The notes under the pieces: model-generated
Told to the model about the DNA's origin: nothing
Database searches by the model: none
Seen by the model: only the letters and a program-made list of their open reading frames with translations
Shown here: one piece after another, positions 2,329-53,299 of the stretch
How positions within the stretch are numbered: the first letter of the stretch is position 1
Layout: each line of letters starts with the position of its first letter
Source of the DNA: Patescibacteria group bacterium
Lineage (GTDB): Bacteria; Patescibacteriota; Patescibacteriia; UBA1558; UBA10009
NCBI GenBank assembly: GCA_041662565.1
Contig: JBAZSE010000005.1
Location: forward strand, 402-64,401
Direction: 5' to 3'
DNA: 64,000 nt
Program-made: the position numbers and the translations under genes

Positions 2329-4226
2329 TGTTTAACGATAATCGGAAAAAAAATCACGGGCTGGTTGATTTGCGATCAGCCAATGTGGTTAAAAAAGCTG
2401 CCACCTCTGCCCCAAAGCATGATGATTTTTTAAGCACGCCCCACGGCCCGGAACACCGTAAAATTACCCGCCGGCCGATTAAAAAGCGCTCGTCTTTTTT
2501 ATTGTTTTTAATCGTTTTACTGCTTGTTTTAGCCGGCGCTTCTATTGCCAGTTTTTTTATCTTTGATCAAGGAAAAGGCGATCAATCATTGCGCTTAACT
2601 TTAGCCGCCGCTAAAAGCGTTTCTTCGGGGGAAGAAGTAACCCTGGAAATCGGCTACGAAAATTTGGATACCATTGCTTTACAAAAAATGCAGGTGGTGG
2701 TGGAATATCCCAAGGGCTTTTATTTTAATTCCGCCTCACAGGAACCCGTTAATCAAGAGAGTAATATTTGGAATTTGCCGGATTTGGGAGTTGGACAAAA
2801 AGGTACGCTTTCTATTAATGGTCAGTTGATTGGCAAGGTAGAGGAAAATAAAGAATTTAAAATGACTTTTCAGTATCGCCCGAGTAATTTTAATTCCGAT
2901 TTCAGCGAAACTCTTGCCAAAGCCATTAAGATTAGCCAGACCTTGTTTCCTGTAAATTTAACGGCACCTGAAAAAATTGAAGAAGGCCAAACAGTAAATT
3001 TTAAAGGCGATTTTAAAAATGAAGCCAAGCAGGATTTAAATAATTTATTTTGGAGTTTTGATTTAGGCGAAGCTTTTATGCCTTTGTCTTTAACTCCAAC
3101 CACTTCCATAAACTACCAATGGTCTTTACCCGCATTGCCACCAGGTGAAAAAAAAGATATTTTGGTTGAAGGAAAAATAAATTCCGCAGTTGCCAACCCC
3201 TTGCCTTGGTATTTTAAAATCTGGCAGAAAGTTGATTTTAAAGGCAATCAGCAGGAACGTATTCTATACGAGCAATCAGGCCAAGTTGAAGTTGTTGCGC
3301 CGGTTTTAAAAGTTGGCTTGGAACTTTCTTCACCCGATAAAAAAATCAATTGGGGCGATGAAGTTGATTTAAAGCTGACTTACGAAAATATAGGCAAGAT
3401 TGATGTTAAGGAAGCGGTGTTAAAATTAGCTTTAAACCAGTATATTGATTGGCCAAGGTACAAAAACCAAACCAATGCCACCATAGATGGTAACACTTTA
3501 ATTTGGCTTTCCAAAAGCGGAAATGCCACTGTTGGCCTTTCAAATATCCCAGTTGGCACAAAAGGCGAACTTTTGATAACCGTACCGTTTGTTTTGGAAC
3601 CTAAGGATTTAATGGATTATTCGCCCGATGAAGCCAAGTTGGAGGCAACAGCTTCGGCTATGATTAAATATAATGATCAGGAGTTGAATTTTAACAGCGA
3701 AAAATTGCTTTTGCCTTTAATCAGTGCGGCGCGTTTGCAGGCCGAGGCCAGGTATTATTTGGATTCAACCCCGCTAAGCGGGGCAAGTACCAAAGTAGGC
3801 AGCGGTCCTTTGCCTCCGGTAGTTGGTCAAGAAACAAAATATCGGATTTACTGGAAGCTATTTACCGGCTCAAGCGGTTTAAGCAACGTGGCGGTTAAAG
3901 CCAGCTTGCCTTCTTATATTAATTTTGTTGGGGGCGCTGATAATCCCACCTTGGGCACACCTTTAAAATTTGATTCCGCCACGCGTGAAGTTTCGTGGGA
4001 AATTAATGAGGCAGCGCCTAACACCGGTTTAATGGCTAGTTTTGATGTTAGTGTTAAACCCTCAACCGATCAGGTTAATCAATTGCTAATCTTAAGCAAT
4101 CCCGCCATGCTTAACGCCCAGGAAAAAGATAGCAATAATTTTATTTCCAAAACCACAAATTTGTTAACTTCCGATTTAACAGCCGATTTGCAAGCCAAGG
4201 GCAAGGGCAGGGTAATGGTAAAATAA
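2328..4226 (+). CDS. Hypothetical membrane-anchored protein: basic cytoplasmic N-terminus, one TM helix, then repeated extracellular beta-sandwich-like (DUF11/CARDB-like) segments
   Basis: A hydrophobic helix (FLLFLIVLLLVLAGASIASFFIF) follows a Lys/Arg-rich N-terminus, and the extracellular part has recurring similar blocks. The ATG at 2328 is preferred over the TTG at 2325. Confidence 0.5.
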   Translation: MFNDNRKKNHGLVDLRSANVVKKAATSAPKHDDFLSTPHGPEHRKITRRPIKKRSSFLLFLIVLLLVLAGASIASFFIFDQGKGDQSLRLTLAAAKSVSSGEEVTLEIGYENLDTIALQKMQVVVEYPKGFYFNSASQEPVNQESNIWNLPDLGVGQKGTLSINGQLIGKVEENKEFKMTFQYRPSNFNSDFSETLAKAIKISQTLFPVNLTAPEKIEEGQTVNFKGDFKNEAKQDLNNLFWSFDLGEAFMPLSLTPTTSINYQWSLPALPPGEKKDILVEGKINSAVANPLPWYFKIWQKVDFKGNQQERILYEQSGQVEVVAPVLKVGLELSSPDKKINWGDEVDLKLTYENIGKIDVKEAVLKLALNQYIDWPRYKNQTNATIDGNTLIWLSKSGNATVGLSNIPVGTKGELLITVPFVLEPKDLMDYSPDEAKLEATASAMIKYNDQELNFNSEKLLLPLISAARLQAEARYYLDSTPLSGASTKVGSGPLPPVVGQETKYRIYWKLFTGSSGLSNVAVKASLPSYINFVGGADNPTLGTPLKFDSATREVSWEINEAAPNTGLMASFDVSVKPSTDQVNQLLILSNPAMLNAQEKDSNNFISKTTNLLTSDLTADLQAKGKGRVMVK

Positions 4227-18219: not shown

Positions 18220-18286
18220 TCGATTTACACTCAGAAGGTTTAAATTTTTTGGCCTTCTGAAGTAAGAAGATTATTTAAAATTTAAA

Positions 18287-18421
18287 CTAGCGCAAGGTAA
18301 AAAAAATTTTTTGTCCTCGATTCCCTCCCTCAACTCGTCGGGGTCTCGTCTGGAACTCGCCCCGACTCGTTCGGGGGGATCCCGTCTCGGACCGAAAAAA
18401 TTTTTCTTACCTCGCGCTAGC
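18287..18421. repeat. GC-rich palindromic element, subfamily B, located inside the atp operon between atpE and atpF
   Basis: TIR CTAGCGCAAGGTAAAAAAAATTTTTT / AAAAAATTTTTCTTACCTCGCGCTAG. Internal stem GTCGGGG/CCCCGAC around loop TCTCGTCTGGAACTCG. Confidence 0.8.
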
Positions 18422-18441
18422 TATTATCTACATATAACATT

Positions 18442-21797: not shown

Positions 21798-22106
21798 TTC
21801 TTTTTAAAAAAAGAGCGCTCTCAAAGATTTGAGAGCGCCTGATCCAAGATTGTGTCTGTATGAGACACGTTAGCCGCTAAGGAAGCGCCTGAATGTTTGT
21901 AATTGAAGCTTGGCTCTATGTTGGCCTGGTTTCAATTTTACTAAAACAACAGGATCTCCCAGCCGATCATTGGCCCATGTTACGGGTGGGCCTTTGGGAA
22001 CTGCGGGTGGTTCAGGATTTCTGTCATTGGACATGGCTTTTCCAATATTGGATTGTTGGGTGATACAGATTACTTTATATTAAAACATAAAATTTTACAT
22101 TAATAA

Positions 22107-23504
<1,398 letters not shown>

Positions 23505-23507
23505 TAT

Positions 23508-23951
23508 ATGAAAATCAAATTCAAAATAGCCACGCCCGAGCGGGTGGTTTACGAATCCGAAGTTGATCAAGTAACCTTGTCCACGCAAATGGGCGAGATT
23601 ACTGTTTTGCCAAACCATATTCCTTTAGTTAGTTCTCTTAAGCCCGGCGAAATAACGGTTAAAATCGGCAAAGAAGATTTACCCATGGCTATTTCGGGCG
23701 GTTTTGTGGAATTTGCCGAAAATAACATGGTGATTTTAGCCGATACAGCCGAAAGGGTAGAAGAAATTAATGAAGAACGCGCCGAAGCCGGCAGAGCTCG
23801 CGCCAAGGAATTATTGGAAAAACAGGGCTTTGCGGAAAATGTTGATTACACCGCTTTGGCCGCTAAAATGGAAAAAGAATTGGCTCGTTTGCGGGTAGCT
23901 AAAAAATATAAAAATATCCGTAAAGGCCCTCAAATTAAAATTGAGGAATAG
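23508..23951 (+). CDS. atpC: F0F1 ATP synthase subunit epsilon
   Basis: N-terminal beta-sandwich (KIATPERVVYESEVDQVTL) plus a C-terminal helical hairpin. Confidence 0.85.
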   Translation: MKIKFKIATPERVVYESEVDQVTLSTQMGEITVLPNHIPLVSSLKPGEITVKIGKEDLPMAISGGFVEFAENNMVILADTAERVEEINEERAEAGRARAKELLEKQGFAENVDYTALAAKMEKELARLRVAKKYKNIRKGPQIKIEE

Positions 23952-23978
23952 GGTTACGCGGATTATATTGATTTTATT

Positions 23979-24018
23979 ACAGATTACACGGATGCTCTAT
24001 CTGTGTAATCTGTTTTTT
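23979..24018 (+). terminator. Rho-independent terminator ending the atp operon
   Basis: Hairpin CAGATTACACGG/CTGTGTAATCTG followed by TTTTTT. Confidence 0.75.
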
Positions 24019-24039
24019 ATATCCGTAAAATCCGTGAAT

Positions 24040-24640
24040 AAAAAAAGACCGCCGAGAACGAGATGGTCTAAGTCAGAGTGGTTGATTTTCTGACTGACTT
24101 CTCGCTCAAGGCGGTGTGGGAGTTCGGCCCCCTCTAGCCGAACAAAGGGTTCGGCGCCGCGTGAATCCACGGTGTGCTTAAGACCGCTTTGTCTTTCTGG
24201 TTTGAAAGACAAAATACGCGGCGCCGAAAAATGAGGCGCTACCAAACCTCTGAACCAGCTTCCTCTCCACCAAGAAAGGGGGTAAGGTAGCGCCGAAAAA
24301 TCCTAAGGCAAGGGGTAGAAACTGTTCAATCTGCACTAACTATAATTGATGCGTTGCCGCGGGCCTCCGAGGGAGGGTGGGAGGTGCCGATTACATCAAT
24401 CATGTTTAAGCATGCTAACCCTTGCCTTATTGAAGGCAGTTAATTACTTGGTCGCGTTCGGTGAGGATGCCGAACTCAATTAACTGCCTGAAACTCCAGG
24501 CGTTTTTTGCAGAATGGGCGAAACATTGCATAAACGCCTTTAGAGGCGGCTTGCCGGGGTGCTGGCGCAGGCAGGAGTATGAACCTAAGCCAACCAAGCC
24601 GCAAACAAAAAGTACACCTACACTTTTACCTTAACATATT
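24040..24640. ncRNA. GC-rich ORF-free structured region. It is a candidate structured ncRNA; RNase P RNA-like motif fragments were noted, but its identity is unresolved.
   Basis: About 600 bp at well above local GC with no credible ORF and many nested hairpins (for example GGCAGTTAATT...AATTAACTGCC and AAGGCAAGGG...CCCTTGCCTT). Weak resemblance to RNase P CR-II (GAAAGGGGGTAAGGTAGCGCC) and to a CR-V-like segment (TATGAACCTAAGCC). Confidence 0.3.
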
Positions 24641-24744
24641 GGAAAAATTCGTCAAATTTTCGGCCTTTTTCAACATCAATTATATGTGCTAAACCCCGCA
24701 CCGCATTTCTTGCCAAGAAAAGCGGTGCGGGGTAAAATACCAGC

Positions 24745-27700
24745 ATGACTTACGCTGATTCTCTTAATCCGGAGCAAAAAAAGGCCGTAGAATACACCAA
24801 GGGCCCGCTATTAATCGTGGCCGGCGCCGGTACCGGTAAAACAACGGTTATCTGCGAACGGATCAATTTTTTAATTACCAAAAAAAATTTACAGCCCAAT
24901 CAAATTTTAGCCCTAACTTTTACCGAAAAAGCCGCCGCCGAAATGGAAGAAAGGGTGGATAAAGCCCTGCCTTACGGTTATATCGATTTATGGATTTCCA
25001 CCTTCCACAGTTTTGCCGAAAGATTATTACATGAGCATGGTTTGGATATCGGCTTAAGCGATGATTTTAAATTATTGGATCAAACCGCTTCCTGGCTGTT
25101 GGTGCGCAATAATTTGGATAAATTCAATTTGGATTATTACCGACCGCTGGGCAATCCCAATAAATTCATCCATGCGTTGTTAAAGCATTTTTCCAAATGC
25201 AAAGATGAACTTATCAAACCAAAAGATTATTTGGACTACGCTGAATCATACCGTTTGGATAATGATTTAAGAAAAGATGAATCCGCCTTCGCCAAGGCTT
25301 CGTCGGACCAAGGGGATGCCGCCATGGAAGTTAAGCGTTTGGAAGAACTAGCTAATGCTTATCATGTTTATCAGCAGTTGTTGCTGGATAATAATTATTT
25401 GGATTTTGGCGACTTAATTAATTATGTGTATGAGCTTTTTTTAAAGCGTCCGCAAATTTTAAAAAAATACCAAGAGCAGTTTAAATACATTTTGGTTGAT
25501 GAATTTCAGGATACCAATTACGCCCAGTACCAATTAATCAAGCTTTTGGCCGGAACAAAAAATAACGTCACGGTAGTGGGGGATGACGACCAATCAATTT
25601 ATAAATTCCGCGGGGCTTCTATTTCTAATATTTTGGAATTTAAAAAAGATAACCCCAAATGCTTGGAAATTTATTTAACCACCAATTACCGGACCAAGCA
25701 GAATATTTTGGATGTTGCCTATAAGTTTATCCAGCTTAATAATCCCAATCGGTTGGAAGCGCAGTTAAAAATCAAAAATAAATCGAGCTCAGCTCGACAA
25801 AGCTCAAAGCTCAAGACTCCAGCCAAAAGTTCAAGATCAAAATTTACCAAAGAGTTAATCGCTTCCAGAACAGGGCAGGGGATTATTGAGCATTTGCACG
25901 CGCCAACGCTGGATGACGAGGTGGCAATGGTGATCAATAAAATCGGCCAGCTTTATCAAAAAGAACAGGGTCTTTCGTGGTCCAATTTTGCCATTTTAGT
26001 TAGAGCTAACGATCAGGCCAGGCCGTTTATCGAGGCCCTGGAAAGAGCGGCTGTGCCTTACCAATTTGTGGCTTCCCGCGGGCTTTATGCCAAACCCTTG
26101 GTGTTAAATTTAATTGCTTTTCTGCGCTTGTTGGATAACTACCATGAATCCGATGCTATGTACCGCTATTTAACTTTACCGATTTTTGCCTTACCTCAAG
26201 CGGAATTGATTAAAATCACCCACGAAGCCAATAAAAAAAGATGGACTTTATACGAAACCGTTAAACAGGTTCGTTACTTATTGCATCTATCGCCTGATGC
26301 GCAAAAAGGTCTGGATGTGGCTTTAAATTTTTTGGAAAAATATCTGGCCCGCGCCAAAACGGAAAAATGCAGCCGTTTGGTTTTTGATTTTTTAAACGAA
26401 TCAAATTATTTAAAATATATCGATACCTTACCCGAAGGCAAAAAGCGCCAAGAATTTTCTTATCTTTCCCAGTTTTACAAGCGCATTAAAACTTTTGAAG
26501 AAATCAATGATGATAAATCGGTTAAAAATTTCCTCAACCAGTTGGGTTTGGAATTGGAATCAGGCGAGCAGGGTGATCTGGCGGCCTTAAACGAAGATGA
26601 AGGTCCGGAAATGGTTAAAGTGATGACGGTGCACAGTGCCAAGGGTTTGGAATTTAAATATGTTTTTATCGTTAATTTGGTGGATATGCGCTTTCCCACT
26701 CGTGAGCGGCACGATCCTATCCAATTGCCCGATAAATTAATTAAAGAAATTGTGCCGGAAGGGGATATTCATTTGCAGGAAGAAAGACGATTGTTTTACG
26801 TTGGTTTAACCCGTGCTCGCGACGGTTTGTTTTTAACTTCGGCCGAAGATTACGGCGGGGTTAAAAAGAAAAAGATTTCCGTTTTTTTAACCGACCTTGG
26901 GTTCAAGCAGCCGGAGCATTTAACTTTTGTTAAAGAAAAATTGGAAACAGTGGAACAAGTGCAAGGTACTGCCAAAGAAACGATTAAAGAATTTTTGCCA
27001 GCCAAATTTTCTTTCACCCAAATCAAGGATTTTCTTGCTTGTCCTCGGTCGTATTATTACAAATACATATTAAAAGTCCCTATGCAGGGTAATAATTATT
27101 TTAGCTTTGGTTCTTCCATTCACCTGTCTTTGCAAAAATTTTACGAAGAAGTCAAAAGAAGAAAGGGAAGCGCGCAAACCGGTTTGTTTGGTCCGGTTTC
27201 GCAACCGAATTTGTTTGGCCAGAGTAATGTTTTAACTCAAGGGGACCCCTCGACGCGGCTCGGGGCAGTTCTCAAATCCTCTAGCCCAAAGTTAATTCGC
27301 GATTTAATTAGTTTAGAGGAGTTAATTAAATTTTACCAAGAGAACTGGATCGAGGACTGGTATGCTTCAAAAGAGCAGAAAGAAAAATATTTCAAATTAG
27401 GCAAGGAAATTTTAAAAAACTTTTACCATAGCGATTATTTGGAGCAATCCAATCCGGTTTATTTGGAAAAAGGTTTTGGTATTAAAGTGGGTGAATTTAG
27501 TTTAACCGGTAAAATTGATAGAATAGACCGCGTGCAAAACGGTTTAAAGATTATTGATTATAAAACCGGCCAACCCAAGGAAAAATTGGAAGCCGATGAT
27601 AAAGACCAGTTGTTAATTTACCAAATGGCTGCTGCGCAATTGTTTAACGAACCAATAGGTGAGCTGGCTTATTATTATTTGGAAAACGATACTCAAGTGG

Positions 27701-27837
27701 TTTTTTTGGGTAAGGAAAAGGATATGGAAAAATTGCAAGAAAAAATTATCACCACCATCAATCAAATCAGAGATTTTGACTTTTTGGCCTTTGTAGAGAG
27801 CCACGGACAGTGTGATTATTGCAAAGAGATTATTTAA
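24745..27837 (+). CDS. UvrD/PcrA-type SF1 helicase fused to a C-terminal RecB-family PD-(D/E)XK nuclease (AddA-like). It carries an in-frame palindromic mini-element insertion at about 25775-25830.
   Basis: Walker A AGAGTGKTT, helicase motifs, a nuclease motif GKIDRIDRV...IIDYKTG, and Cys residues (CPRSYYY, CDYC) suggesting an Fe-S-type nuclease domain. Confidence 0.8.
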   Translation: MTYADSLNPEQKKAVEYTKGPLLIVAGAGTGKTTVICERINFLITKKNLQPNQILALTFTEKAAAEMEERVDKALPYGYIDLWISTFHSFAERLLHEHGLDIGLSDDFKLLDQTASWLLVRNNLDKFNLDYYRPLGNPNKFIHALLKHFSKCKDELIKPKDYLDYAESYRLDNDLRKDESAFAKASSDQGDAAMEVKRLEELANAYHVYQQLLLDNNYLDFGDLINYVYELFLKRPQILKKYQEQFKYILVDEFQDTNYAQYQLIKLLAGTKNNVTVVGDDDQSIYKFRGASISNILEFKKDNPKCLEIYLTTNYRTKQNILDVAYKFIQLNNPNRLEAQLKIKNKSSSARQSSKLKTPAKSSRSKFTKELIASRTGQGIIEHLHAPTLDDEVAMVINKIGQLYQKEQGLSWSNFAILVRANDQARPFIEALERAAVPYQFVASRGLYAKPLVLNLIAFLRLLDNYHESDAMYRYLTLPIFALPQAELIKITHEANKKRWTLYETVKQVRYLLHLSPDAQKGLDVALNFLEKYLARAKTEKCSRLVFDFLNESNYLKYIDTLPEGKKRQEFSYLSQFYKRIKTFEEINDDKSVKNFLNQLGLELESGEQGDLAALNEDEGPEMVKVMTVHSAKGLEFKYVFIVNLVDMRFPTRERHDPIQLPDKLIKEIVPEGDIHLQEERRLFYVGLTRARDGLFLTSAEDYGGVKKKKISVFLTDLGFKQPEHLTFVKEKLETVEQVQGTAKETIKEFLPAKFSFTQIKDFLACPRSYYYKYILKVPMQGNNYFSFGSSIHLSLQKFYEEVKRRKGSAQTGLFGPVSQPNLFGQSNVLTQGDPSTRLGAVLKSSSPKLIRDLISLEELIKFYQENWIEDWYASKEQKEKYFKLGKEILKNFYHSDYLEQSNPVYLEKGFGIKVGEFSLTGKIDRIDRVQNGLKIIDYKTGQPKEKLEADDKDQLLIYQMAAAQLFNEPIGELAYYYLENDTQVVFLGKEKDMEKLQEKIITTINQIRDFDFLAFVESHGQCDYCKEII
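25775..25830. repeat. Palindromic mini-element copy inserted in-frame within the helicase-nuclease gene
   Basis: AAATCGAGCTCAGCTCGACAAAGCTCAAAGCTCAAG; core TCGAGCTCAGCTCGA is a perfect palindrome. It encodes the low-complexity peptide NKSSSARQSSKLKT. Confidence 0.7.
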
Positions 27838-48489: not shown

Positions 48490-48726
48490 ATCAGACGGCG
48501 CTAACGTAAAAATAAAAAAATTTGTAGCCGAGGACCGTTTAAGCCTTATCAAACGTGGCTTGAGAAAATTCAGAACGGCGGGGATAACTTAAATGAAAAA
48601 ATCGCAATTGATTGGCGCGTTCCGCAGGCAAGAATTTTTTTATTTTTACGATTAGCTATACCTAATTTAACGATGTGTGGCGCTTAGCGCCACAACCCCA
48701 GCGCTAAGCGCTGTGGATAAATACTA

Positions 48727-48755
48727 TTGACGGTCAATTTTTGAAAGAGTATTAT
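48727..48755 (+). promoter_or_regulatory. Candidate promoter TTGACG-N17-TATTAT driving a ~110-nt leader/sRNA that ends at a strong terminator
   Basis: Near-consensus hexamers. Upstream is a GC hairpin plus TGTGGATAA; downstream is the terminator at 48842-48870. Confidence 0.4.
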
Positions 48756-48841
48756 TATCCACAGTATGTTAAAACAAAACTTTAAATGGAAAGATAGGTT
48801 GAGCGTTACTCCAGGTTTAAGTTTTTCAAATTTTATCAATT

Positions 48842-48870
48842 ACACCCGTCAATAAGACGGGTGTTTTTTT
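48842..48870 (+). terminator. Rho-independent terminator (or attenuator) 30 nt upstream of the AsnRS-like gene
   Basis: ACACCCGTC-AATAA-GACGGGTGT followed by TTTTTTT. Confidence 0.75.
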
Positions 48871-48898
48871 AACTTAATTATTAACTAAGCTTTAATTT

Positions 48899-53222: not shown

Positions 53223-53299
53223 TGGTACGCCCAAGAGGATTTGAACCTCTAACCTTCAGCACCGGATTCTGACGCCCTATCCAGTTGAGCTATGGGCGC
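53223..53299 (-). tRNA. tRNA-Arg (anticodon CCG), CCA encoded
   Basis: Manual fold: acceptor GCGCCCA/TGGGCGT, D-arm GCTC-AACTGGATA-GGGC, anticodon loop ATCCGGT, T-arm AGAGG-TTCAAAT-CCTCT, and a 3' ACCA. Close to the E. coli tRNA-Arg(CCG) recalled from memory. Confidence 0.8.

What the first reader, a model, noticed from the sequence alone, without database searches (positions are those of the whole stretch)
24040..24640. 600-bp GC-rich, ORF-free, highly structured island between atpC and the helicase gene (unassigned ncRNA candidate)
In a genome with almost no intergenic space, about 790 bp separate atpC from the helicase gene. The central 600 bp are strikingly GC-rich, have no credible ORF on either strand, and are full of nested helices: an 11-bp stem GGCAGTTAATT/AATTAACTGCC, AAGGCAAGGG/CCCTTGCCTT long-range pairing, and CCTCCGAGGGAGG. 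A 12-bp stem CCCCGCACCGC/GCGGTGCGGGG sits just before the helicase start. Fragments resemble RNase P RNA conserved regions (GAAAGGGGGTAAGGTAGCGCC, TATGAACCTAAGCC), but the canonical GGAAAGUCCGG box was not found. tmRNA, SRP RNA or an unusual ribozyme remain possible.
Basis: partly seen in the sequence, partly recalled or inferred. Interest (0 to 1): 0.65.

Follow-up and report, generated by a model that had tools for sequence, protein, structure and literature searches.

The report
New structured RNA gene, opposite strand
The GC-rich gap between atpC and the helicase gene holds a separately transcribed, roughly 580-base folded non-coding RNA gene on the opposite strand; it matches no known RNA family and was found in only a few close relatives of this small-genome (Patescibacteria) bacterium, and its function is unknown.

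Summary
The 793-bp atpC–helicase gap is the only long ORF-free gap in the window. It reaches GC 0.49–0.56 against 0.40 for the window, and it folds far better than shuffles (z about −8).

It is a non-coding RNA gene, but on the minus strand, at about 24622→24040. Two relatives with full-length copies, L084 and L085, keep a σ70-type promoter (TTGACT-17-TAAAGT; TTGACG-16-TGnTAAGGT in the window). They also keep a hairpin plus U7–8 terminator that faces the terminator of the upstream + strand gene.

The RNA is a chain of hairpins, P1 to P7 plus the terminator. P1–P4 form the conserved core, and L106 keeps only P4 and the terminator. In P1–P3, 15 of 57 pairs show compensatory changes; in P4, 12 of 30 do. 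No shuffle out of 500 reached these values. Sequence blocks stay invariant although 4-fold codon sites are only 37–52% identical.

Rfam 15 gives no real or consistent hit in three homologs. ARAGORN finds no tmRNA, and the RNase P core boxes are absent.

I found no homolog in more distant relatives, phages or plasmids.

Verdict: a candidate new, narrow-clade, large RNA family. I infer that it acts in trans as a modular hairpin array.

The parts
24040..24622 (-). Whole predicted RNA gene, about 583 nt, running from the inferred start near 24621-24623 to the U-tract. The start is placed 6-8 nt after the -10 box and has not been mapped.
   Evidence: A homologous region was found by nhmmer in L084 (E 1e-30) and by profile in L084 and L085. 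Promoter and terminator are conserved. Fold z = -7.8.
24650..24655 (-). -35 box, TTGACG
   Evidence: It aligns with the TTGACT of L084 and L085 (A2). The scan tool calls TTGACT-17-TAAAGT on the minus strand in L084 (4953..4925) and L085 (4403..4375).
24628..24636 (-). Extended -10 box, TGtTAAGGT, 16 nt after the -35 box
   Evidence: Read from the sequence. It aligns with the TAAAGT of L084 and L085. The hexamer alone matches the consensus at 3 of 6 positions, so the scan tool did not list it.
24546..24602 (-). P1 hairpin. The outer 8 bp (GCGGCUUG/CAAGCCGC) are invariant. The inner stem covaries.
   Evidence: Model R2 alignment A9: helix 1 has 8 of 8 invariant pairs; helix 2 has 3 pairs with changes on both sides.
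24494..24545 (-). P2 hairpin, abutting P1 with no linker. The outer 12 pairs (CUCU..AGGCGUUU/AAACGCCU.GAG) are invariant and the tip is variable.
   Evidence: A9: helix 3 has 12 of 12 pairs that never vary; helix 4 has 2 compensatory pairs.
24434..24489 (-). P3 hairpin (GGCAGUUAAUUG.../...UAAUUAACUGCC) with the C-rich loop CAUCCUCA
   Evidence: A9: helices 5 and 6 have 10 of 19 pairs with compensatory changes. Loop.
24304..24429 (-). P4 domain. Invariant outer stem AAGGCAAGG/CCUUGCCUU, inner stem P4b (UUGAUG/CAUCAA), apical hairpin with the C-rich loop CACCCUCCCUC, and a conserved unpaired GCGGCAAC. This is the only domain also kept in L106.
   Evidence: Model R1 finds it in the window, L084, L106 and L085. 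A10: 12 of 30 pairs compensatory, 96% of cells paired, 0 of 500 shuffles as high.
24295..24303 (-). Conserved U-rich linker, GGAUUUUUC, leading into GGCGC
   Evidence: The UUUUUCGGC block is invariant in all four sequences (A3).
24235..24294 (-). P5 hairpin (GGCGCUACC.../...GGUAGCGCC), followed by a second copy of AUUUUUCGGCGC
   Evidence: Minimum-energy folds. Its position is shared with L084 and L085, but its sequence is poorly conserved.
24150..24228 (-). P6, a branched hairpin with a 13-bp closing stem. It belongs to the variable 3' part of the RNA.
   Evidence: Minimum-energy fold. It does not align with L084 or L085, which instead share GGAAAGAUGGCAUCUCUCC there.
24122..24143 (-). P7, a small hairpin with a G-rich loop (GUUCGGCU-AGAGGG-GGCCGAAC)
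   Evidence: Minimum-energy fold. It is specific to this window.
24040..24115 (-). Intrinsic terminator: a long hairpin at 24047-24115 ending in GGCGGUC, then U7 at 24046-24040
   Evidence: Read from the sequence and the fold. L084 and L085 end in GGCGGGUC plus U7-8 at the same place, and the scan tool calls the L085 site (3881..3864, minus).
23979..24019 (+). atpC's own terminator (16-bp hairpin plus T6). It is not part of the RNA. It faces the RNA's terminator, so the two units converge.
   Evidence: terminator-like site on the + strand, 23979-24013.
24694..24738 (+). A 12-bp hairpin overlapping the helicase promoter (TTGCCA-17-TAAAAT). It is not part of the RNA.
   Evidence: The hairpin is not conserved in L084, L085 or L086, whereas the TAAAAT box 6-7 nt before the ATG is.

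Best explanation
The island is a stand-alone gene for a structured non-coding RNA of about 580 nt. It is transcribed from the minus strand, opposite to atpC and the helicase gene.

Supported by sequence and comparison:
- It has its own σ70-type promoter (TTGACG-16-TGnTAAGGT) and ends at a long hairpin plus U7 terminator that faces atpC's terminator.
- The RNA is a string of hairpins: P1, P2, P3, P4, P5, P6, P7 and the terminator.
- P1-P4 (about 300 nt) and the U-rich linker after P4 form the conserved core. The 3' arms differ between genomes.
- It founds a small family seen only in three or four closely related Komeilibacteria-like Patescibacteria. It matches no Rfam family.

Inferred, not shown:
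- The conserved core has no multi-helix junction. Its hairpin stems covary, its tip loops stay C-rich and G-poor, and one relative keeps the P4 module alone.
- I therefore think it most likely works in trans as a modular hairpin array. It would present its loops, and its three sequence-invariant helices, to a partner.
- The partner would be either G-rich RNA targets, in the manner of Staphylococcus RNAIII and the Rsa RNAs, or a bound protein, in the manner of CsrB or of an RNA-protein scaffold. I do not think it is a ribozyme.

I put about 0.8 on 'real minus-strand RNA gene of a new family' and about 0.35 on the hairpin-array mechanism. The confidence value of 0.7 given for this explanation refers to the identity claim (a real minus-strand RNA gene of a new family), not to the mechanism.
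For: Strand and transcription unit:
- The -35 and -10 boxes and the hairpin-plus-U terminator align in the window, L084 and L085 (A2). The scan tool calls both promoters and one terminator.
- In L085 the upstream HEAT-like gene has its own terminator just before the RNA promoter. The RNA is therefore an independent unit.
- G-U pairs outnumber A-C oppositions 17 to 3 in the helices.

Structure:
- Fold z is about -8.
- P1-P3: 93% of cells paired and 15 of 57 pairs with changes on both sides. No shuffle out of 500 reached this, and slid controls gave 0-5.
- P4: 96% of cells paired and 12 of 30 pairs with changes on both sides. No shuffle out of 500 reached this.

Selection:
- RNA identity is 0.57-0.68, with invariant blocks of 8-24 nt. 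Four-fold degenerate sites in atpC, atpD and the helicase gene are only 0.37-0.52 identical between the window and these relatives.

Not coding: no ORF is shared by the three genomes.

Not a known family:
- Rfam at gathering thresholds and at E<=10 gives nothing real or consistent.
- ARAGORN finds no tmRNA.

Modularity: L106 keeps only P4, the linker and a terminator, directly after a protein gene.

Loops: apical loops are 35-48% C and 0-17% G in all four sequences.

Precedent for C-rich-loop regulators: PMC2790875 and PMC2837412.
Against: - There is no transcription data.
- Only three full-length sequences and one partial one exist, so the covariation counts are suggestive and not statistically rigorous. 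The alignments were also fitted to the model structure.
- Folding energy does not favour the minus strand. The + strand is equal or better in L084 and L085.
- The window's -10 hexamer is weak (3 of 6 positions) and relies on a TGn extension.
- Against an RNAIII-like mode aimed at ribosome-binding sites: 50 of 55 ORFs in the window lack a Shine-Dalgarno-like motif. The loops also pair no better with start regions than with gene interiors.
- G-poor loops are partly an artefact of minimum-energy folding. Unrelated structured regions in L094 and L107 show similar loop composition.
- The invariant helices could reflect a constraint other than partner binding.
Confidence: 0.7

Rival explanations
1. 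It is a highly diverged housekeeping RNA that Rfam models miss: RNase P RNA, tmRNA, SRP RNA or 6S RNA. This is known to happen for RNase P RNA in bacteria of this group (CPR, the candidate phyla radiation).
For: Lui et al. 2021 (PMC8172020) report diverged RNase P RNAs in these bacteria. The RNAs have extended or missing helices and needed bit thresholds far below Rfam's cut-offs. No RNase P, tmRNA or SRP RNA was detected anywhere in the 64-kb window. The conserved GCGGCUUGnUUGG loosely resembles the CGGCUUA of RNase P CR-V.
Against: - No RNase P, tmRNA, SRP or 6S model appears even at E<=10 in any of the three homologs.
- CR-I (GGAAAGUCC) and CR-V are not conserved on either strand, so there is no P4.
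- The 5' and 3' ends do not pair. The 3' end is a terminator hairpin.
- ARAGORN finds no tmRNA, including permuted forms.
- The family is absent from relatives whose helicase is 57-71% identical. An essential universal RNA would not be.
Confidence: 0.03
2. The functional strand is the + strand. The region would be a structured 3' UTR of the atp operon, a long 5' leader or riboswitch of the helicase gene, or a + strand RNA.
For: The flanking genes are on the + strand. Folding energy on the + strand is as good or better. One terminator-like site exists on the + strand inside P2.
Against: - atpC has its own strong terminator before the island.
- The helicase has a conserved TAAAAT box 6-7 nt before its ATG, so it appears leaderless.
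- No + strand promoter or terminator brackets the island.
- An A7-8 run conserved in three genomes precedes the first hairpin on the + strand. This only makes sense as a U-tract on the minus strand.
- The conserved G-U pairs would become A-C mismatches on the + strand.
- In L085 the element is separated from atpC by a Na+/H+ exchanger gene and from the helicase by a HEAT-like gene.
Confidence: 0.05
3. It is a large architectural RNA of the OLE, ROOL or GOLLD kind. It would be a protein-binding scaffold or a self-assembling RNA whose loops make tertiary or intermolecular contacts, and not a base-pairing regulator.
For: The size (about 580 nt) is like OLE or ROOL. Three helices are sequence-invariant on both strands despite near-saturated neutral divergence, which suggests sequence-specific recognition. 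C-rich loops and G-rich loops (P7 AGAGGG; GGAGG in the P1 tip of L084 and L085) could form kissing contacts. Self-assembly of ROOL, GOLLD and OLE is reported in 10.1101/2024.12.08.627333 (listed).
Against: No Rfam hit to OLE, ROOL, GOLLD or raiA. The conserved core is a linear series of hairpins with no multi-way junction and no supported pseudoknot. I found no loop-loop pairing that is kept in all homologs. The 3' third is not conserved.
Confidence: 0.2
4. It has no RNA function. The region would be a decaying or selfish hairpin-rich DNA insert, such as a mobile-element remnant, or a DNA-level element between two operons.
For: It is found in only a few close relatives. The same intergenic position holds unrelated structured sequences in other relatives (L089, L094, L107), which suggests fast turnover. 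L106 holds a truncated copy. The window's 3' part carries an internal duplication of AUUUUUCGGCGC.
Against: Compensatory changes keep the helices intact. Conservation is above that of synonymous sites. The promoter and terminator are conserved. The window holds a single copy. There is no similarity to phages or plasmids, and no transposase or terminal repeats flank it.
Confidence: 0.07

Closest known systems
Staphylococcus aureus RNAIII and the Rsa family of RNAs with C-rich loops (PMC2837412, PMC2790875)
   Same: RNAIII is a stand-alone RNA gene restricted to one lineage, about 0.5 kb long, with its own promoter and a terminator hairpin. It is a modular series of hairpins. C-rich, G-poor apical loops could serve as pairing seeds.
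   Different: There is no sequence or model similarity, and Rfam gives no hit. This genome seems to use few Shine-Dalgarno sites, so the classical targets are lacking. No encoded peptide is conserved. No targets or expression data are known.
OLE, ROOL and GOLLD large bacterial RNAs of unknown or scaffold function (Rfam RF01071, RF03087, RF01998; accession numbers recalled from memory)
   Same: Similar size class (about 600 nt), GC-rich relative to the genome, narrow phylogenetic range and no assigned biochemical function.
   Different: No match to their models. The architecture is much simpler, a linear set of hairpins with no ornate junctions. The linked genes typical of those RNAs (oapA for OLE, tRNA or prophage context for ROOL and GOLLD; recalled from memory) were not seen next to it. 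Its distribution is far smaller.
Diverged RNase P RNA of CPR (candidate phyla radiation) bacteria (PMC8172020)
   Same: It is a GC-rich structured RNA in a Patescibacteria genome that standard Rfam thresholds do not annotate.
   Different: It lacks the CR-I and CR-V boxes and therefore P4. Its ends do not pair into a P1. It scores nothing at E<=10 and is missing from sister lineages.
CsrB/RsmZ-type protein-sponge RNAs
   Same: It is a tandem array of hairpins with a compositional theme repeated in the loops.
   Different: The loops are C-rich and lack the GGA motif that CsrA binds. No csrA link was examined.

Membership tests
Bacterial RNase P RNA (RF00010/RF00011) | Match to the covariance model | tested here: not met
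   No RNase P hit at E<=10 on either strand in the window (23900-24800), L084 or L085, and none at gathering thresholds. A hit below roughly 14 bits would not have been shown.
Bacterial RNase P RNA (RF00010/RF00011) | Conserved regions CR-I (GGAAAGUCC) and CR-V (ACAGAAnCCGGCUUA) that form helix P4 | tested here: not met
   Approximate pattern search on both strands of three homologs. The only 1-mismatch matches to CR-I lie in the variable P1 tip of L084 and L085 and are absent from the window. CR-V is absent everywhere.
Bacterial RNase P RNA (RF00010/RF00011) | The 5' and 3' ends pair (P1) to close a multi-domain fold | tested here: not met
   The folds show a linear series of local hairpins, and the 3' end is an intrinsic terminator.
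tmRNA | tRNA-like domain, tag reading frame and model match | tested here: not met
   ARAGORN finds no tmRNA in the window. Rfam gives none. No T-arm motif is present.
SRP RNA / 6S RNA | Match to the covariance model | tested here: not met
   No hit at E<=10 in three homologs.
Known large bacterial RNAs (OLE, ROOL, GOLLD, raiA, HEARO) | Match to the covariance model | tested here: not met
   Rfam 15 scans.
Self-cleaving ribozymes, group I/II introns, riboswitches | Match to the covariance model | tested here: not met
   Rfam scans. The RNA is also antisense to both neighbours and has no gene downstream on its own strand.
Stand-alone bacterial non-coding RNA gene (generic) | Own promoter and intrinsic terminator, conserved in homologs | tested here: met
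   A2 alignment. Promoter scans of L084 and L085, and a terminator call in L085. In the window both are read from the sequence. Transcription itself has not been shown.
Stand-alone bacterial non-coding RNA gene (generic) | Secondary structure maintained by compensatory substitutions | tested here: met
   15 of 57 pairs (P1-P3) and 12 of 30 pairs (P4) have changes on both sides. No shuffle out of 500 reached these values, and slid controls were far lower. Caveat: only 3-4 sequences, and the alignment was fitted to the model.
Stand-alone bacterial non-coding RNA gene (generic) | Not protein-coding | tested here: met
   No ORF is conserved across the three genomes. Indels shift the reading frame. 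The gene callers behind the contig records placed no gene there.
RNAIII/Rsa-type regulators with C-rich loops (working analogy, not homology) | Unpaired C-rich motifs in apical loops | tested here: met
   Apical loops are 35-48% C and 0-17% G. CCUC, CUCC or CCCU lie in the P3 and P4 loops of most homologs. This is partly expected from minimum-energy folding.
RNAIII/Rsa-type regulators with C-rich loops (working analogy, not homology) | Complementarity to ribosome-binding sites of target mRNAs | tested here: inconclusive
   50 of 55 ORFs lack a Shine-Dalgarno-like motif. Start regions pair less well with the loops than gene interiors do (mean -5.0 against -7.1 kcal/mol). Only 64 kb of the genome could be examined.

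The most novel reading that the evidence does not exclude
The site just upstream of the AddA-like helicase gene in Komeilibacteria-like Patescibacteria may host a large structured RNA gene. That gene would be kept in position and orientation while evolving so fast that its sequence is unrecognisable between sister clades. Candidates are this ~580-nt RNA and the unrelated-looking units of about 310, 470 and 880 nt in L107, L089 and L094. If so, this is a new class of large RNA with a sophisticated role, as a protein-binding scaffold or a catalyst, in bacteria with minimal genomes.
Probability: 0.12. Interest if true: 0.8.

Novelty: new variant of a known kind. Interest (0 to 1): 0.5.

Why it matters
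Structured bacterial RNAs longer than about 500 nt with no assigned family are rare, and known ones have tended to have complex roles. Patescibacteria have genomes of about 1 Mb with very little non-coding DNA (general knowledge of the group). A 0.6-kb non-coding gene kept under selection is therefore a real cost, and probably does something useful for the cell. Their RNA repertoire is poorly charted; even RNase P RNA is often missed (PMC8172020).

If confirmed, this adds a new RNA family. It also points to a fast-evolving RNA locus next to a recombination and repair helicase gene.

Its very narrow distribution, its simple hairpin-chain architecture and the lack of expression data limit the impact for now.

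Tried and rejected
**Known families**
- Rfam 15 at gathering thresholds on the whole window gave only tRNA-Arg at 53226-53299.
- Rfam at E<=10 on the region and on the L084 and L085 homologs gave only hairpin-type noise (miRNA models and similar) and nothing consistent across the three.
- ARAGORN found no tmRNA.
- Pattern tests for RNase P CR-I and CR-V, the tmRNA T-arm and an SRP motif were negative.

**Search for more family members**
- The 80 species-representative loci found with AtpD (about 45 of them Patescibacteria, the rest mostly Firmicutes): no homolog by nhmmer or blastn or by the covariance models.
- One metagenome pattern scan with CCTTGCCTTNNNNTTTTTCGGCGC returned only the L084 contig again plus chance matches.
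- Two pattern scans of viral contigs gave none or chance matches.
Relatives whose helicase is 57-71% identical (L089, L091, L094, L107, L108) and L109-L111 (found through a 76%-identical AtpC) lack it. This held even for the four-sequence P4 model with filters off.
- L112 ended at atpC, and L086-L088 ended just upstream of the helicase gene.
- blastn against the phage and plasmid collections found no match.

**Other tests**
- Folding energy as a test of strand was uninformative.
- I looked by eye for a consistent P1-tip to P4-tip kissing interaction and did not find one in all homologs.
- I considered targeting of ribosome-binding sites by the C-rich loops and marked it down because Shine-Dalgarno-like motifs are scarce here.
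- A link to the HEAT-like gene that sits next to the RNA in L085 and L106 fails: the gene is absent from the window and L084.
- A replication origin is unlikely, because cumulative GC skew does not change sign here.
- Literature searches found no description of this RNA.
Full report
**1. The observation**

atpC (23508-23951, +) and a 1030-aa UvrD-type helicase with a PD-(D/E)XK nuclease domain (24745-27837, +) are separated by 793 bp. The gene identities come from Pfam hits on the identical contig L081. This is the largest gap in the window. The other gaps over 400 bp mostly hold small genes that my 100-aa filter missed: atpE, an ArsR-like regulator, a SecE-like protein and a 91-aa ORF. The one exception is 48490-48898, which has no convincing ORF.

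GC in 200-nt windows reaches 0.485-0.555 between 24000 and 24600, against 0.399 for the window. Both strands fold about eight standard deviations better than dinucleotide shuffles, at -239.9 and -242.8 kcal/mol with z of -8.1 and -7.8.

**2. Organism and relatives**

The best named helicase homologs are from Candidatus Komeilibacteria and unclassified Patescibacteria. AtpD neighbours point the same way. Three other contigs (L081-L083) carry the same strain, 100% identical across the region.

Using helicase and AtpC homologs to fetch contigs, I found homologs of the island in three genomes:
- L084 (GCA_900218215; helicase 76% identical; same atpC–gap–helicase layout; nhmmer E 1e-30).
- L085 (GCA_030688315; helicase 74% identical). 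Here the island lies between a Na+/H+ exchanger gene and a HEAT-like gene.
- L106 (GCA_040960315; a 660-aa helicase fragment, 81% identical). This copy is truncated.

**3. Strand and transcription unit**

The three-way alignment (A2) shows a σ70-type promoter at one end of the island on the minus strand. It reads TTGACT-17-TAAAGT in L084 and L085, both called by the scan tool. In the window it reads TTGACG-16-TAAGGT with a TGn extension (read).

At the other end there is a GC-rich hairpin that finishes in GGCGG(G)UC and is followed by U7-8 (called by the tool in L085). This terminator faces the terminator of the upstream + strand gene. For atpC in the window that is the site at 23979-24013 plus T6. 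In L085 the HEAT-like gene upstream on the minus strand has its own terminator immediately before the RNA promoter.

On the + strand, no promoter or terminator brackets the island. The helicase gene carries a conserved TAAAAT box only 6-7 nt before its ATG in the window and seven relatives. It therefore has essentially no leader.

In the conserved helices, G-U pairs outnumber A-C oppositions 17 to 3. On the + strand those G-U pairs would be mismatches. Folding energy alone does not discriminate the strands.

I conclude that the gene is on the minus strand, about 24622→24040 and about 583 nt long. The start is inferred from the -10 box and has not been mapped.

**4. Anatomy (minus strand, 5' to 3')**

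- P1, 24602-24546.
- P2, 24545-24494, abutting P1 with no linker.
- P3, 24489-24434.
- P4, 24429-24304. This is a long arm with an inner stem (P4b), an apical hairpin and a conserved unpaired GCGGCAAC.
- A conserved linker, GGAUUUUUC.
- P5, 24294-24235.
- P6, 24228-24150.
- P7, 24143-24122.
- The terminator, 24115-24040.

P1-P4 and the linker are shared by the window, L084 and L085. The 3' arms are not alignable between the window and the other two, which share a different 3' module. The window also carries a second copy of AUUUUUCGGCGC. L106 retains only P4, the linker and a terminator, placed directly after the stop codon of its HEAT-like ORF. P4 therefore behaves as a separable module.

**5. 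Is the structure selected?**

I built covariance models from the window alone (R2 for P1-P3, R1 for P4) and used them to realign the homologs.

| Domain | Cells paired | Pairs changed on both sides | Shuffles as high | Slid controls |
|---|---|---|---|---|
| P1-P3 (3 sequences) | 93% | 15 of 57 | 0 of 500 | 0-5 pairs |
| P4 (4 sequences) | 96% | 12 of 30 | 0 of 500 | 0-4 pairs |

The compensatory changes cluster in the inner stem of P1, in P3, in P4b and in the P4 apical hairpin. The outer stems of P1 (8 bp), P2 (12 pairs) and P4 (9-10 bp) never vary.

Four-fold degenerate sites in atpC, atpD and the helicase gene are only 0.37-0.52 identical between the window and these relatives. The aligned RNA is 0.57-0.68 identical and has blocks of 8-24 invariant bases. 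No ORF is conserved in all three genomes, and the indels break reading frames.

Caveats: only three or four sequences exist, the alignments were fitted to the model, and the shuffle control ignores phylogeny. The evidence is good but not statistically rigorous.

**6. Known families**

- Rfam 15 finds only one tRNA in the whole window.
- At E<=10 the island and its two full-length homologs hit only unrelated hairpin-type models, and no family recurs across the three.
- Nine related loci have no gathering-level hit.
- ARAGORN finds no tmRNA.

RNase P RNAs of this bacterial group (CPR, the candidate phyla radiation) are known to be diverged and missed by Rfam (PMC8172020). I therefore tested that idea directly.
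- The universal CR-I and CR-V boxes that form P4 are not conserved on either strand in the three homologs.
- The ends of the RNA do not pair.
- The element is missing from sister lineages, which an essential RNA would not be.

I reject RNase P, tmRNA and SRP RNA.

**7. Distribution**

I found no homolog in any of the following:
- the 80 AtpD-anchored species-representative loci, about 45 of them Patescibacteria;
- relatives whose helicase is 57-71% identical (L089, L091, L094, L107, L108) and L109-L111, found through a 76%-identical AtpC. This held even with a four-sequence P4 model with filters off;
- one metagenome pattern scan and two viral pattern scans, beyond chance matches;
- phage and plasmid collections.

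The window holds a single copy. The family as currently seen is therefore confined to one narrow clade.

L089, L094 and L107 carry other strongly structured units on the minus strand at the same position upstream of the helicase gene. Each runs from a promoter-like site to a terminator-like site, and they are about 470, 880 and 310 nt long. They show no detectable similarity to this RNA and no Rfam hit.

**8. How it probably works (inference)**

The conserved core is a linear array of hairpins with no multi-way junction and no supported pseudoknot. The stems covary while the tip loops remain C-rich (35-48% C) and G-poor in every homolog. CCUC, CUCC or CCCU motifs lie in the P3 and P4 loops. 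One relative keeps a single module. This looks more like a modular trans-acting regulator or protein-binding array than a ribozyme. RNAIII and the Rsa RNAs with C-rich loops are the nearest analogy for a regulator (PMC2837412, PMC2790875), and CsrB is the nearest for a sponge.

Classical targeting of ribosome-binding sites is doubtful. 50 of 55 ORFs in the window lack a Shine-Dalgarno-like motif, and the loops pair no better with start regions than with gene interiors. G-poor loops are also partly a folding artefact.

The three helices that are invariant on both strands suggest sequence-specific recognition by a protein or by tertiary contacts. That keeps an OLE-like scaffold role open.

My estimates are:
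- about 0.8 that this is a real minus-strand RNA gene of a new family;
- about 0.35 for the hairpin-array, trans-acting mechanism;
- about 0.2 for a scaffold or self-assembling role;
- under 0.1 each for a + strand element, a non-functional remnant or a diverged housekeeping RNA.

**9. Verdict**

The general reading, an unassigned non-coding RNA, is right. The strand and the specific candidates were wrong.

This is a candidate new family of large structured RNA in a bacterium with a minimal genome. It is interesting but of narrow distribution, simple in architecture and without expression data. Interest is 0.5.

Noticed in passing
window 24710-24747, and the 130 nt before the helicase start in L084, L085, L086, L089, L091, L107 and L108: The helicase gene appears to be expressed as a leaderless mRNA. 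A TAAAAT -10 box ends 6-7 nt before the ATG in the window and seven relatives.
   Followed up: partly
window 24694-24732: A 12-bp perfect hairpin (CCCCGCACCGC...GCGGTGCGGGG) sits between the RNA promoter and the helicase start, with the helicase -35 box (TTGCCA) in its loop. It is not conserved in L084, L085 or L086, and L107 has only a partial resemblance. Its role is unknown.
   Followed up: partly
window, all 55 ORFs of at least 100 aa: 50 of 55 ORFs have no Shine-Dalgarno-like motif within -20..-3 of the longest-ORF start. This suggests that the organism relies little on such sites. Start codons were not curated.
   Followed up: no
L089 4455-4925 (-), L094 75-950 (-), L107 452-762 (-): Related genomes carry other strongly structured, ORF-poor units upstream of the helicase gene, each running from a promoter-like site to a terminator-like site. 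They have no similarity to this RNA and no Rfam hit. L094's is about 880 nt with GC 0.52.
   Followed up: partly
window 48490-48898 and 18220-18441: Two further intergenic stretches without a convincing ORF. The 409-nt stretch at 48490-48898 has a rough fold z of about -8. The 222 nt after atpE were not assessed on their own.
   Followed up: no
window 21798-22124: A 327-bp gap lies between atpG and atpD, where L084 has only about 53 bp. It is not notably structured (z about -2).
   Followed up: no
helicase homologs P0003, P0010, P0016, P0020 and P0090; L085 5001-9104: Several close homologs of the helicase are 1326-1367 aa long and carry intein domains (PF14890, and PF01079 in some). The window's copy (1030 aa) is intein-free.
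   Followed up: no
L089 3520-3867: A gene of the bAvd / 23S-rRNA-intervening-sequence protein family is inserted between atpD and atpC in a relative. It may be an accessory gene of a diversity-generating retroelement.
   Followed up: no
L106 4497-4973 (-): The HEAT-like ORF next to the truncated RNA copy is only 31% identical to its L085 counterpart. The contig's gene caller placed a + strand gene over it instead.
   Followed up: partly
window 53223-53299 (-): tRNA-Arg (CCG) is the only RNA gene in the 64-kb window that Rfam and ARAGORN recognise.
   Followed up: yes
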